From positions 159,154,001-159,218,000 of the forward strand of contig OZ024741.1 in the NCBI GenBank assembly GCA_964016885.1: 64,000 bases of DNA. Direction: 5' to 3'. The notes below the pieces were generated by a model. The model saw only the letters and a list, made by a program, of their open reading frames with translations, did no database searches and was not told the DNA's origin. A program made the translations under genes and the position numbers. This DNA comes from Eledone cirrhosa (Eukaryota). This document shows positions 6,079-62,829 of the stretch, piece after piece. Within the stretch, counting starts at the first letter, position 1. Every line of letters starts with the position of its first letter.

Positions 6079-8144
6079 GAAACATGTAAATGTAAATAAC
6101 ATAAATATACAGAATATAATTTTTTTTTTAAACTTAATCATGAAGATGAAAGACAAAATTATATCAGCCATGTTTGATATTTTTCTATTTTACAATGATG
6201 AGTTTTTTTTTTGTTAACAAGGAAATGTTGATTTATATTTTGTATATGAATACATAAAAACTAATAGCAAATGAAATTTAAAATAGAAATGACAAAATAA
6301 GTGCAGGCATAGCTGTGTGGTTAAGGAGTTTGCTCCACAACTCTGGTTTCAAGTTAAGCCCCAAAGCATCGTATTTGGATACTAGGCAAGTGTTTTCTAT
6401 TATAGACTTGAGTCATGAGTGAAATTTGATAGACAGAAATTGTGTACAAGTTCCAGCAAGGATGAAACTAATGATACTTTGTGTTATTGCATCTCAGTGT
6501 TCATCTTGTTTCATATATAAGCATAGTGGCGCTATTAAGTTAGACGTGGTCTAGGCTAATACTGCCTGAAACCTATGAAAATTATATATTTCATTAGATT
6601 GCCATTGCTTCCGATGACAAGCACTCCATTTGTTTGAAGAGGGACTTCAATAATAAAGAACCATATGGATTCGAGTTCAATTCCATGGTGGTATGGGCCA
6701 GACAAGTTGTTACAATCTGAAACAGTTCTTGTTCAGAGTTACTGCCCTTGTAGATGAGTCAGATGTGGTTTGGTTTGTATGCCTGAAACTGCTTCATAAC
6801 ACAAACCACTTTACAGAATATACTGGTTGCATTTTATTATGGCATCAACACTAAATGGGTTGTCGTGTTACTAAGCTAGAGTCCTCTCCATAATTTACAT
6901 TAAATTTCAATGAGTATTGTCAGACAAAACAACTAAACTACCATATTCAGTTAAGCACAGAAAGTCCAGTACCACATAAAATCACATTTGCAAAAAAACT
7001 TTTTAAAATACAAAACAATACTGTCACTGTAACATGTTAAAAACTAGAGTCTATAATAATCTCATAACTGTCCATTTTTACAACGAACTGTCCACTAATA
7101 TAGTTAATATAATTATTTGAATTAACAAATCACATTAAACCACATTATCAAGATATTCTTGAAAAGTACAATACAGCATTATGACTGTATCACATTAAAA
7201 ATTAAAGACCTTAATCTCATAACGGTAAATTTTCACGAAAGATCTGTCCCCTAATAAAGATACTATAAACATTTTAATTAAAAGACATATTTTCTATTAA
7301 ATTATTACTGAGTGTTAAGAGTTTATATGGAGTTTAAAGATGGTAAGGTACAGTAAAGATGTTGAAAGGAGTTAGAGATGGATCTGTCATGTAGACCTTG
7401 GATGAGGAGTGTGCAGCCTTTTGGTTGTGATATGCAAGAAAACCAATCATTCTGCCAAAACACAGAACAATAGGAGAGTGGGCTGCAATGAATGTGAAAT
7501 AAACTCAATAAAGCATGTTAGTCAGTAGAGTAATGTTTTACATTTGGTCAATTTTTATTCCTCATTTCACAAAATGTGTTACTGTTCTTTGGCTGTTTAT
7601 ATATATATATATATATATATATAAACAGCCAAAGAACAGTAATGTGTGTGTGCATGTATGTATACATGTATGCATATATATGTATGAGTGGATCAGAATC
7701 AATTTATGCAGATAACTTTGCATATCATAATCATGGCCACCACCATTACCATATCATCCAACCCCCAACACTATCTATTCTATGTATTGCATGGTGCTGC
7801 ATTAGTTACGCAGTTACTTGTTTGCATGCTATATATCATCATCAATAGCGTTCTCATCATCATCATCATCAAGAGCAACACTACCATAAAGAATACCACC
7901 AACACTGTCATCATCATCAAGAAAAGAATACCACCCCCATCATCACCATCAAGAACACCACCACCATCATCACCACCAAGAACACAACCACTACCACCAT
8001 CATCAAGAATACCACCGCCACCACCACCACCATCATCATGAAGAATATCATCCCATTTATTGTCATCAAAAAGGGAGCTAATAGAAAGTTAGTGAGTTTT
8101 GCACTGTTATATATATATGTATGTGTTTGTGAGAGATGAGTGTG

Positions 8145-30801: not shown

Positions 30802-30803
<2 letters not shown>

Positions 30804-31016
30804 GTAGGAGGTGAGTTTTATTGTAGTACAATAAAGCAATGCAGATATCTGATATATGTTGATTTAAAACTGCACTATCCACAAGTGTTTTTTAACCTTC
30901 ATATCATGTCCTCCTATTTTATCTGATGAAAACACAAATGTTATTGCACGATGATATTTGTTTTTGAAATGCGCATAATAAAATACATGGAACTCATTTA
31001 ACCATCTTTTGATCTT
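30802..31016 (+). mobile_element. Hammerhead-bearing non-autonomous element (same family as 59352-59815) in a (TA)n tract
   Basis: 30855-31016 matches 59558-59720; 30802-30853 is the inverse of 59764-59815. Confidence 0.8.
30915..30985 (+). ncRNA. Type I hammerhead ribozyme, canonical core
   Basis: tattttat CTGATGA aaacacaaatgttatt gcac gatgatatttgttttt GAAA tgcgca TA ataaaata: 8-bp stem I, long stem II, palindromic stem III, AUA triplet (site 30977). Confidence 0.85.
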
Positions 31017-31043
31017 ATATATATATACATATATATATATAAA

Positions 31044-41914: not shown

Positions 41915-42886
41915 AATTGAGGACATGAAAACAGATAAAGTAGCATGGCCATTGGGAATAGTTGCTGAAATGCTGAAAATATCTGGAATGGTAGGTTACA
42001 CCATAACTACCTATATTGTTAACCATGTAATACAAAATAGTGCCATACCCAATGACTAGCATAGCAGCAACATCATGAACAAAGGGCAAAGGTGACGCAC
42101 TAGCCAGAGGGAATTATCGTGGCATCAAACCGACCGGGCAGAGTCATACAACTGATTAGGGATCGAATTAACCTATGGGAACACAAGAGATGTAGTGGGA
42201 TCTTGGGTAGGTTAGCTAAAAATGCAGGTATTACTTGTGACCATTGCACAGGAGCAGTAAGTAAAAAACACTCACAGGAAACAAATGCAATCAAATTCTT
42301 GGAAGGTTCTGTAGAAGCAGTCGACAGCCTCTGTTACTTGGGTGACCAAATTAGCAGTGGATGTGCCGAAAGTACAATAACCAGAGTGAGAATAGGATGG
42401 AAAAAGTTCAAGGAGCTACAACTGCTGCTAACTACAAAAGAAATTTCCCTCAAAATGAGGTGTAGATTGTATGATGCAATGTTACATGGTAGTAAGACGT
42501 GGGTGATGTGTGCAGATGATCTGCAAAGATTGGAAAGAAATGAAGCTGGCATGCTTCAAGGGATGTGTAATAGTAATATACATGAACGGCAAAACTTAAA
42601 TGAACTGAGAGAGAAATTGGTCATAAGAGAGATCAGAGGCAAAGTGCAGGAGAAGAGATTGCGTTGGTATGGACATGTGATGCATATGAAGGATGACAGC
42701 TATAAAAAAAGGTGTAGGGTGCTCAAAGTTGATGGAAGCTATGGAGTAGGAAGAATTAGGAAGACTTGGGATGTGGTGATAAAAGCAGACTGTACAACTA
42801 CACCTCTCAACGGCATGACACAGGATCAAGATCGCTGGTGTTATGCAGTAATACAAAAGACTTGCCTTCCCATGTGCACAGGTTGA
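41915..42886 (+). pseudogene. RTE LINE remnant with the RT core deleted
   Basis: VAEMLK...RGNYRGIK joined to [30 protein letters not shown]. Confidence 0.9.
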
Positions 42887-52549: not shown

Positions 52550-52713
52550 CTTTGGTTTCCCGGACCAATGTGTTACCATTACACCAACATGCCACCCATG
52601 CTTCTTTCCATTCAATTAGAAGCTATATAACCATAGCAGAAGAAAGCATGGGTGGCGTGTTGGTGTAATGGTAACACATTGGTCCGGCAAACCAAAGCTG
52701 TGGGTTCCTGTCC
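52550..52713. other. Inverted pair of tRNA-like 5' halves (fold-back)
   Basis: 52550-52605 is the inverse of ~52642-52697; GGCGTGT TG GTGT AATGGTA ACAC A TTGGT CCGGCAA ACCAA folds into D and anticodon arms. Confidence 0.65.
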
Positions 52714-53037
52714 TTCGTCATCTCCTCCGTGAGCTTCAGCGATCTGAGGTCAGCCCTCACCACCTCCGCCCAAGTTTTTCGTGGTCTTCCTCCACTGCGT
52801 CTTCCTTCCGCCGGGATTTCTTGCTACTTCTTCACCCAGCGGTCATCTTCCATGCACATCACATGGCCACACAAACAGTCTTCTCACCTGCACACTACAA
52901 TTTACCCCTCTTATATACACAGTTTCACTCTCAACTCGTCCATGCTTGGTCATTCATGCACATTCACATTGCACATCCATCAGAACATGCTTATTTCATT
53001 TCTCTCCAACCTTCGCATATCCTCCGCAGTTGTTGTG
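52711..53037 (-). mobile_element. RTE LINE 3' fragment
   Basis: TTAEDMRRLERNE and GRPRKTWAEVVRADLRSL on the minus strand. Confidence 0.85.
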
Positions 53038-59266: not shown

Positions 59267-59356
<90 letters not shown>

Positions 59357-59382
59357 CAAAAGATGGTTAAAAAAGTTCCATG

Positions 59383-59454
59383 TATTTTATTATGCGCATT
59401 TTCAAAAACAAATATCATCATGCAATAACATTTGCGTTTTCGTCAGATAAAATA
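59383..59454 (-). ncRNA. Type I hammerhead, minus-strand copy (one extra A in GAAA)
   Basis: Reverse complement of 59618-59688 with GAAAATGCGCATA. Confidence 0.7.
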
Positions 59455-59617
59455 GGGAGACATGATATGAAGGTTAAAACACACTTGTGAATAGTGCAGT
59501 TTTAAATCAACATATCATGATATGTTGAATCAACATTTTAAATCAAACATATCATGATATGTTGATTTAAAACTGCACTATTCACAAGTGTGTTTTAACC
59601 TTCATATCATGTCTCCC

Positions 59618-59688
59618 TATTTTATCTGACGAAAACGCAAATGTTATTGCATGATGATATTTGTTTTTGAAATGCGCATAATAAAATA
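59618..59688 (+). ncRNA. Type I hammerhead ribozyme, canonical core
   Basis: tattttat CTGACGA aaacgcaaatgttatt gcat gatgatatttgttttt GAAA tgcgca TA ataaaata (site 59680). Confidence 0.85.
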
Positions 59689-59811
59689 CATGGAACTCTT
59701 TTAACCATCTTTTGATCTTATATATTATTTATACTCCAGTCCTACAAACTGTAGAGTGCTACTTATCCGATATCTGCATTGCTTTATTGTACTACAATAA
59801 AACTCACCTCC

Positions 59812-59876
<65 letters not shown>

Positions 59877-60683: not shown

Positions 60684-61231
60684 TACAATGTAAAACACTC
60701 TTTCAAGAATATATTTTATTTGTTGCTGACGTCTGAGAGAGCCAAGAACAGCTTTGTCTTTGTCAAGTAGCAGATAAATGGTAGGGAGAATAGCTGAATG
60801 GTGGTAGATGGAATGGCAGAATGATTGGCAGGGAGAATATAGATGGAATGGAAGTGATGTGGCAGGGTGGAGAAGTGGTGGTAGGGAGATTGGTAGATGC
60901 ATTAGTAAAAAAACAAACTTCACATGTAAAAGTACATTGTGAGTTGAATATAAAAAGACATGAAGAGAAGATATAGTACAGTTTATATTTGTTCTCATCA
61001 GATGGCTATATATAAAAGATTGTATCAACATATATGAAACAAATTTAGTTATATACAGTTCACAGTTCTCTTACAGAACTAAATTAACTGATAACATGAT
61101 AAAGAAATCTAAATAGAAAATGACTGTACATCATCTGTTTATATACTTGAATATTTACCATTGTGATATACATATACACACATACATACATGTTAGAAAC
61201 TGACTCTCTCTCTATTGATAAAAAATTATAA

Positions 61232-62372
61232 AACTAGAATTTTGTGCGCGCGTATGTTATGTAGATTGTACACACAAGTGTAGTGAATGTTAGACACTGT
61301 TTTCTGTAGTTTGTCATCACTCCTTCCTTCCTCAGTCATCTCTAGTGTGTAACGTCATCACCCCTTCCTTCCTCAGTCATCTCTAGTGTGTGACGCCATC
61401 ACTCCTTCCTTCCTCGGTCATCTCTAGTGTGTGACGCCATCACTCCTTCCTTCCTCGGTCATCTCTAGTGTGTGACGTCATCACCCCTTCCTTCCTCAGT
61501 CATCTCTAGAGCATGACGTCATCACCCCTCCCTTCCTCAATCATCTCTAGTGTGTAACGTCATCACCCCTTCCTTCCTCAGTCATCTCTAGAGCATGACG
61601 TCATCACCCCTCCCCTCCTCAATCATCTCTAGTGTGTGACGTCATCACTCCTTCCTTCCTCAATCATCTCTAATGTGTGACGTCATCACCCCTTCCTTCC
61701 TCAATCATCTCTAATGTGTGACGTCATCACTCCTTCCTTCCTCAATCATCTCTAGTGTGTGACGTCACCACCCCTTCCTTCCTCAATCATCTCTAATGTG
61801 TGACATCATCACCCCTTCCTTCCTCAATCATCTCTAATGTGTGACGTCATCACCCCTTCCTTCCTCAATCATCTCTAATGTGTGACGCCATCACTCCTTC
61901 CTTCCTCAATCATCTCTAGTGGGTGACGTCACCACCCCTTCCTTCCTCAATCATCTCTAATGTGTGACATCATCACCCCTTCCTTCCTCAATCATCTCTA
62001 ATGTGTGACGTCATCACCCCTTCCTTCCCCAATCATCTCTAATGTGTGACGTCATCACCCCTTCCTTCCTCAGTCATCTCTAGAGCATGACGTCATCACC
62101 CCTTCCTTCCTCAGTCATCTCTAGAGCATGATGTCATCACCCCTTCCTTCCTCAATCATCTCTAATGTGTGACATCACTCCTTCCTTCCTCAGTCATCTC
62201 TAGCGTGTAACGTCATCACCCCTTCCTTCCTCAGTCATCTCTAGTGTGTAACGTCATCACCCCTTCCTTCCTCAGTCATCTCTAGAGCATGACGTCATCA
62301 CCCCTTCCTTCCTCAATCATCTCTAGTGTGAGTCGGAAGGACGGACGGCAGTCGCTCAGATTTATATATAGT
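61232..62372 (+). mobile_element. Helentron/DINE-like non-autonomous element with an internal 41-bp array (~25 units, 61313-62330)
   Basis: Starts aactag..gtgcgcgcgtat, ends ggacggacgg..tttatatatagt; ttataaaactagaa at both 61226 and 62373. The array is certain; the family assignment is tentative. Confidence 0.55.
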
Positions 62373-62829
62373 TTATAAAACTAGAAGAACATACATACTG
62401 GGTAAAAAGGGATTTTCTGATGATAGGTTTAAGTATTTCGTGTACTACTAAGTATATATTACTAATTTATCTGGTCCCTACAACTGGACAAAAACTAAAT
62501 ATTGAAAGCAATTGAGGCCTGAGGAAGTTCGTCTTCTTAGTACAGTGGTTTAATTTTAAATTTATTTCATTATTATATTTCTTTGTAGTGTTTTAATTTT
62601 GGATTGGATTTATTTCTTGGTTATACATTTCAGGTTTTGTTGATAAGATATGAAGTATTTGGTAGTTGATATTGCCCATGGCAGACATTTTAGATCTGAG
62701 TAGTCATATTTTGTATGATGTCTATGTTGGTTTAGAGTTTTTGTACTCATTTACTTCTATTTTGTTGTTAGATGGGGGTTATGATAGAAATAATCTATTA
62801 TATATGTGTGTGTGTATTTATATCCCAAG

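What the first reader, a model, noticed from the sequence alone, without database searches (positions are those of the whole stretch)
59352..59815. Near-perfect palindrome that places the same hammerhead on both strands
The ~175-bp arms differ at only a few positions. Each holds a hammerhead with 8-bp stem I (tattttat/ataaaata), an unusually long ~15-bp stem II and palindromic stem III ATGCGCAT with an AUA triplet. Transcription in either direction would give one sense ribozyme plus its antisense, so ribozyme folding competes with a long dsRNA hairpin (a possible siRNA or ADAR substrate). The centre is itself a duplicated palindrome, caacatatcatgatatgttg, which suggests fold-back priming.
Basis: partly seen in the sequence, partly recalled or inferred. 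Interest (0 to 1): 0.75.

Follow-up and report, generated by a model that had tools for sequence, protein, structure and literature searches.

The report
Head-to-head stump of Penelope-like retrotransposon
This mirror-image DNA is one of thousands of short, back-to-back insertions of a Penelope-like jumping gene whose end carries a predicted self-cutting RNA; the shape is already known, and the copies suggest that both halves are likely copied from the element's RNA onto the two cut ends of the target DNA rather than by folding back.

Summary
The palindrome is real: 181 aligned columns, 3 differences. It is a 5'-truncated, inverted insertion, in (TA)n, of a Hydra-clade Penelope-like element (PLE). 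Its hammerhead core occurs 15,714 times in this genome, and long copies encode a telomerase-like reverse transcriptase. Inverted ends, opposite-strand hammerheads and palindromic junctions are all in print for PLEs. In a position-ordered sample, 43 of 48 inversions have one tailed and one tail-less end. In 22 of 41 the tail-less arm reaches further upstream than the tailed arm, and in 9 the arms do not overlap. Simple fold-back cannot make these; twin priming from both target strands can. Arms of one insertion share subfamily variants (479 of 508 sites). The ribozyme is predicted to need a dimer and to lose to the hairpin, so it is likely a passenger here. Transcription, editing and cleavage are untested. 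The scan found this architecture and reading before, in this genome and others.

The parts
59272..59352 (.). Left (TA)n microsatellite, insertion target; any target-site duplication is unreadable in it
   Evidence: both flanks are microsatellite in 45 of 48 family inversions (lenient test; sequences)
59353..59515 (-). Left arm: inverted pLTR piece, tail-less end (inferred cDNA primed from the top strand at the upstream RT start site); 3 private differences
59383..59454 (-). Minus-strand type I hammerhead motif with an extra A after GAAA (predicted cut after 59391, likely impaired)
59516..59556 (.). 41-bp junction made wholly of 5-11-nt snippets of the nearby pLTR, including CATGATATG twice; the simple form of this junction recurs at about 60 loci
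   Evidence: (62 forward, 61 reverse matches, mostly the same places read on both strands)
59557..59724 (+). Right arm: pLTR from the family's 5'-end hotspot (ATATGTTG, likely RNA start) to the tail-less end site
   Evidence: 31 of 82 inner ends fall in a 14-nt window here
59618..59688 (+). Type I hammerhead motif: 8-bp stem I, long stem II, palindromic stem III (dimer type), AUA, predicted cut after 59680
59725..59815 (+). One-sided PLE 'tail', about 90 nt with three small predicted hairpins and an AC-rich end; in long copies it runs on into the 5' UTR and ORF
   Evidence: (L027, L030)
59816..59872 (.). Right (TA)n microsatellite
30802..31020 (.). Second stump of the same family: 53 nt of inverted tail joined to a tail-less pLTR, arms not overlapping, in (TA)n

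Best explanation
This is a short head-to-head insertion of a Hydra-clade Penelope-like retrotransposon in a (TA)n tract, likely built by twin priming: both cut target strands would prime reverse transcription on the element's RNA. Shown: membership of a family with over 15,000 core matches, the RT-endonuclease ORF in long copies, two fixed outer ends about 90 nt apart, one at each end of most inversions, and matching subfamily variants in the two arms. Inferred: the endonuclease cuts both strands of (TA)n; one 3' end primes at the tail end and the other at the UUAUAUAU site; both cDNAs run to the RNA's 5' end near 59557; their 3' ends are joined through ATAT/CATATG microhomology, here after a few short templated jumps that built the centre; repair fills in the palindrome. 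The hammerhead comes along as part of the pLTR. It is predicted to work only as a dimer and, if this locus is transcribed, to be trapped in the long hairpin, so it is likely inactive here.
For: Family and ORF: 40 near-identical copies scored; L051 is pLTR-ORF-pLTR+tail; a natural copy has an unbroken 821-residue frame whose model (pLDDT 85) best matches telomerase RT. Geometry, from 68 loci taken by position on contig C1: 48 inversions; 43 tailed/tail-less, 1 tailed/tailed, 0 tail-less/tail-less, 4 unclassified. Of 41 (2 tandem cases dropped) the tail-less arm reaches more than 10 nt further upstream in 22, the arms end within 10 nt in 12, and the tailed arm is longer in 7 (22 vs 7, p = 0.008). 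In 9 the tailed arm is tail only. The window's second copy (30802-31020) is of that kind. Tail-less ends also occur with no tailed partner detected (e.g. L081, L109, L116, L141). Arms agree at 479 of 508 polymorphic sites within insertions against 62.5% between. Biochemistry in another PLE: the protein cuts and extends both target strands and starts RT at two sites that bound the tail; ribozyme cleavage is not needed (PMC11167929, parts 1-2 of 4 read). Ribozyme: the predicted monomer fold misses the core and the cofolded dimer forms it.
Against: This locus is one of the symmetric cases (both arms end at the hotspot), which fold-back also explains. Asymmetric deletion after insertion could shorten a tailed arm and mimic the geometry. 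Shared variants do not separate one RNA from two RNAs of one source copy, nor from later gene conversion. The sample needs one arm with the exact 25-mer, so it misses insertions with two short arms. The non-native G before ATATGTTG (11 of 36 junctions not preceded by TTTC) could be a cap copy or microhomology. PMC11167929 itself does not propose twin priming (term search).
Confidence: 0.68

Rival explanations
1. Fold-back (self-priming): one cDNA primed at the tail end snaps back at its 3' end, copies itself and joins the target at the TATATA site; uneven arms would come from later deletions.
For: Published reading of PLE palindromic junctions (PMC3846280, passages). It explains identical arms, the one-sided tail and the palindromic centre here; 12 of 41 inversions are symmetric and 7 have the longer tailed arm.
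Against: It needs a secondary deletion in 22 of 41 inversions, biased to one arm, and in 9 it must remove the whole mirrored part (window 30802-31020). Tail-less ends occur without a tailed partner.
Confidence: 0.2
2. The palindromic stump is itself a non-autonomous unit that is transcribed and moved as a whole.
For: The same 24-nt junction recurs at about 60 loci; 16 of the first 100 hits' neighbour pairs lie within 500 bp, many at 230-253 bp.
Against: Junction sequences differ from copy to copy, arm lengths run from tens of bases to kilobases, and each subfamily makes its own palindromes.
Confidence: 0.05
3. The locus has a function as a ribozyme-versus-dsRNA switch or as an siRNA/ADAR substrate.
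For: The predicted hairpin is very stable; the common stem variants keep pairing on the sense strand (98.1% of cells paired).
Against: It is one of thousands of like stumps; the minus-strand core carries a rare extra A; no A-to-G excess among rare variants shared by both arms (1 of 14); covariation does not exceed shuffles.
Confidence: 0.04
4. Assembly or library artefact.
For: Palindromes next to long (TA)n are hard to assemble (general knowledge; PMC8557442 notes assembly trouble with such insertions).
Against: The arms differ at 3 sites and end at two distinct biological ends; the architecture is family-wide and arm-to-arm joints appear in independent short-read data.
Confidence: 0.03

Closest known systems
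Hydra clade of C-terminal EN+ Penelope-like elements (Craig et al. 2021, PMC8557442; section 11 and passages read; supplements not read)
   Same: RT then C-terminal GIY-YIG-type domain, DKT motif, CxCX5C linker, CxxC and CxH around the conserved E and N, no CCHH in the GIY-YIG core, hammerhead in the pLTR, insertion in (TA)n, molluscan hosts among those listed.
   Different: RWT instead of RWK in the copy read; unit about 3.7 kb (paper: generally under 3 kb) with an Asn-rich low-confidence linker and a 0.9-kb 3' UTR; very high copy number. No tree with named Hydra sequences was built.
Typical EN+ PLE insertion with inverted 5'-truncated pLTR, junction palindrome and one-sided tail (PMC3846280 passages; PMC8557442 Fig. 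2 legend)
   Same: Head-to-head arrangement, palindrome at the junction, tail at one end only.
   Different: No ORF between the arms here; the tail is about 90 nt rather than 30-40 and lies upstream of the likely start codon; the family geometry favours twin priming over the self-priming proposed there.
PLE hammerheads (Cervera and de la Pena 2014, PMC4209133; parts 1-2 of 4 read)
   Same: Type I, long helix II, palindromic helix III, dimer-type; that paper already reports dual hammerheads 100-700 bp apart on opposite strands in Schistosoma, and no monomer activity with low dimer activity for a PLE ribozyme.
   Different: Longer stem I (8 bp), stem II (about 15 bp) and palindrome (8 nt); A-U or G-U instead of G10.1-C11.1.
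PAc (Poseidon of Anolis) in vitro (Frangieh et al. 2024, PMC11167929; parts 1-2 of 4 read)
   Same: Two RT start sites bounding the tail, AT-rich targets, both strands extended, AC-rich start region, ribozyme not needed for insertion.
   Different: Other clade; its start sites lie inside the ORF; inverted products are not discussed.
LINE-1 twin priming (recalled; seen only in search listings)
   Same: Second target strand primes on the RNA, giving a 5' inversion joined by microhomology.
   Different: There the second primer lands at variable internal sites in a minority of insertions and the arms do not overlap; here it is a fixed site, in most insertions, and the arms often overlap into a palindrome.

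Membership tests
EN+ Penelope-like element | Single ORF with a telomerase-related RT | tested here: met
   YRDD motif, unbroken 821-residue frame in L096; top Foldseek hits are TERTs, E 8e-8. Pfam gave no significant match.
EN+ Penelope-like element | C-terminal GIY-YIG endonuclease | tested here: inconclusive
   Motif-level only (LIY...YFG, then R, H, E, N); the domain was not folded or searched on its own.
EN+ Penelope-like element | pLTRs from partial tandems; inverted 5'-truncated copy; one-sided tail | tested here: met
   L051; L101, L107, L138, L139 tandems and 43 of 48 inversions.
EN+ Penelope-like element | Target-site duplication | tested here: inconclusive
   Unreadable in (TA)n; none seen in 9 flank pairs looked at.
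Hydra clade | DKT, CxCX5C linker, CxxC/CxH, no CCHH | tested here: met
   against section 11 of PMC8557442.
Hydra clade | RWK motif | tested here: inconclusive
   RWT in L096, RWI in L051; RWK in homologues P0002, P0003, P0005, P0006.
Hydra clade | (TA)n targeting and hammerhead present | tested here: met
Hydra clade | Phylogenetic placement with named Hydra RTs | not tested
   No named reference set was fetched.
Type I hammerhead ribozyme | Core CUGANGA, GAAA, NUH and three stems | tested here: met
   Plus strand met; CUGANGA positions 96-100% conserved in 104-106 arms covering them (the GAAA side was fixed by the search). Minus strand has an extra A.
Type I hammerhead ribozyme | Compensatory covariation | tested here: inconclusive
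   36 distinct copies: 98.1% paired, 11 pairs vary on one side only, 1 on both sides, no excess over shuffles; copies are too alike.
Type I hammerhead ribozyme | Self-cleavage | not testable with these tools
   No assay. Indirect: of 9 copies among 100 that match downstream of the cut but not across it, 1 starts at the cut and 8 carry substitutions.
Non-LTR retrozyme | Head-to-tail tandem of ribozyme monomers, no ORF partner | tested here: not met
   Head-to-head pair; the same pLTR flanks an RT ORF.

The most novel reading that the evidence does not exclude
Twin priming is the normal insertion route of this PLE: one RNA is primed at two fixed sites by the two target strands, the downstream RT either stalls at the upstream primer (tail-only arms) or displaces it and runs to the RNA's 5' end (palindromes). 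The thousands of stumps would then be a genome-wide record of RT starts, RNA start and second-strand joining, and would replace the self-priming model for PLE inverted ends.
Probability: 0.5. Interest if true: 0.6.

Novelty: new member of a known kind. Interest (0 to 1): 0.3.

Why it matters
The locus itself is ordinary. The family matters modestly: how PLEs make their inverted ends and one-sided tails is named as an open question in PMC8557442, and the counts here give a testable answer that ties to the published both-strand, two-start biochemistry. I did not find twin priming proposed for PLEs in five searches of the held library, which lacks most subscription papers; the scan's own notes already hold this reading many times. 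Thousands of such palindromes would also be a ready source of dsRNA wherever they lie in transcripts, which is untested.

Tried and rejected
Rfam: no hammerhead call. Pfam on ORF pieces and on four homologues and PDB sequence searches: nothing significant apart from a weak retron RT match (E 0.008). Two own-genome DNA searches with short queries returned nothing because common words are skipped; exact patterns were used instead. Sequencing runs: no RNA holder listed, so expression, editing and small RNAs could not be examined. Read laying: no listed piece covers 59532-59547, the locus-specific centre; the runs may be other individuals or species, so this says nothing about the locus. Homodimer prediction for residues 1-480: no verdict. 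Lead that arms stop at the ribozyme cut: the count falls from 17,157 to 15,295 on crossing the cut, but 8 of 9 cases viewed are substitutions and inner ends show no clear pile-up there; not supported for this family. Lead on fossil ADAR edits: 1 A-to-G among 14 rare shared variants in 69 arm pairs of the pLTR part only; not seen. Cap-copied G at the hotspot: inconclusive. I first recalled the Nematis clade; the motifs fit Hydra better. bioRxiv 10.64898/2026.07.22.740005 (part 1 of 5), PMC13282606 and PMC2377424 (passages) added only background. No host exon was identified near the locus; a scan for long frames in the window showed none close to it.

Full report
Observation. The arms align over 181 columns with two substitutions and one indel. 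The plus-strand hammerhead is as described, with a predicted cut after 59680; a loose descriptor hits 2 of 20,000 shuffles. The minus-strand copy has an extra A after GAAA, a variant seen 8 times in the genome against 15,714 for the normal core. The right arm continues about 90 nt without a mirror, and both sides abut (TA)n.

Identity. A genome search gave 40 near-identical copies among 450 candidates, 40 scored. Many of the 30 fetched are the same palindrome; others run upstream into a longer element, and two run past the tail into an ORF. L051 is pLTR, ORF in three pieces, 3' UTR, pLTR and tail. L096 has an unbroken 821-residue frame. Its model (37-sequence alignment, pLDDT 85) matches telomerase RT best. 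DKT, CxCX5C, CxxC, CxH and the lack of CCHH fit the Hydra clade, RWK only partly. The nearest named proteins come from Argonauta hians; with a 3.0-Gb AT-rich genome the host is likely an octopod (inference).

Architecture. Among the first 100 exact hits on contig C1, 32 of 99 neighbouring pairs lie within 8 kb: 29 divergent as in the window, 3 tandem, 0 convergent; a few divergent pairs are separate insertions (L098, L102). I mapped 68 loci, after dropping duplicates of the same insertion, onto L051 (L133, a diverged subfamily, gave no chain). Of 73 chains, 48 are simple inversions, 23 single-orientation and 2 complex. Outer ends fall at two sites, the tail end and a TATATA site about 90 nt upstream; 43 of 48 inversions have one of each. 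With 2 tandem cases dropped, the tail-less arm reaches further upstream in 22 of 41, the ends are level in 12, the tailed arm is longer in 7; 9 tailed arms are tail only; 31 of 82 inner ends fall in a 14-nt window at the position of 59557. The window's second copy, at 30802-31020, has non-overlapping arms. The sample needs one arm with the exact 25-mer.

Mechanism. Read 5' to 3' from either flank, each arm is antisense to the element, as a first-strand cDNA primed by that flank would be (sequence). A fold-back copy cannot hold sequence absent from its template, so the 22 cases, and above all the 9, need two primings or a later one-sided deletion. PAc cuts and extends both strands and starts at two sites bounding the tail (PMC11167929), which supplies the chemistry. 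Arms match at 479 of 508 polymorphic sites within 30 pairs against 9,231 of 14,763 between pairs, and 14 rare variants are shared by both arms in 69 pairs: one RNA, one source copy or gene conversion. The 41-bp centre parses into 5-11-nt pieces of the neighbouring pLTR; its simple form recurs at about 60 loci. This locus is symmetric, so its own route is inferred from the family.

Ribozyme. The monomer's best fold (-11.3) misses the core; the forced hammerhead fold is -6.7; two copies cofold into the dimer form (-43.3). The extra A stays unpaired in the core in the cofold. Common stem variants keep pairing through G-U, but covariation does not beat shuffles. Through the palindrome the hairpin (-273 or -282) dominates, and in either direction the antisense arm is made first. 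PLE ribozymes tested so far cleave weakly or need the protein (PMC4209133, PMC11167929). Most arms read through the cut site, so templates were mostly uncleaved.

Known versus new. Inverted pLTRs, junction palindromes, one-sided tails, (TA)n targeting and opposite-strand hammerheads 100-700 bp apart are published. The long tail and the counts against simple fold-back are additions. I stated the twin-priming reading before opening the scan's notes; these then showed the same reading in 458 findings by words and 1,028 fitting notes in this genome, 8 of each seen; they are unchecked AI notes and not support. Supplements of the papers were not read and may hold Hydra hammerheads or octopod families like this one.

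Verdict. Real, ordinary as a locus, a new member of a known kind; interest 0.3, carried by the mechanistic test the family allows.

Noticed in passing
window 30802-31020: Second insertion of the same PLE family: inverted 53-nt tail piece joined to a tail-less pLTR in (TA)n, arms not overlapping.
   Followed up: yes
L051 about 6380-6900 (+) and L065 about 1080 (+): A different small hammerhead (palindrome ACTAGT), twice in L051 at 469-bp spacing: retrozyme-like tandem next to a PLE copy.
   Followed up: no
L075 (-), hit at offset about 2320 of the reverse strand: Another hammerhead-like motif with a long stem II and palindrome ACCGATCGGT.
   Followed up: no
L031 624-1960 (-) and 2969-3499 (+); L046 3-1499 (-); L048 2886-3419 (+); L042 444-1472 (-): ORF pieces that look like other PLE families; PLE diversity in this genome appears high.
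   Followed up: no
L113, L128, L133: Diverged subfamily with the same hammerhead core, a more GC-paired stem II tip and a different upstream pLTR, ending inversions at the same hotspot.
   Followed up: partly
window 52654-52720 (+): Weak tRNA match (30.9 bits), likely a tRNA-derived SINE head.
   Followed up: no
window 61190-62470: Tandem array of a 41-bp unit, about 30 copies.
   Followed up: no
window 42104-42883 (+): 260-residue open frame, likely a LINE remnant (not searched).
   Followed up: no
L019 1495-1933; L102 6740-8596: Insertions of the family directly beside or into earlier ones, making compound palindromes; the (TA)n flanks keep serving as targets.
   Followed up: no
family-wide, L065, L089, L131, L139, L140: A second, weaker 5'-end cluster about 34 nt upstream of the main hotspot (CCAATATCACAC); possibly a second RNA start.
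   Followed up: no
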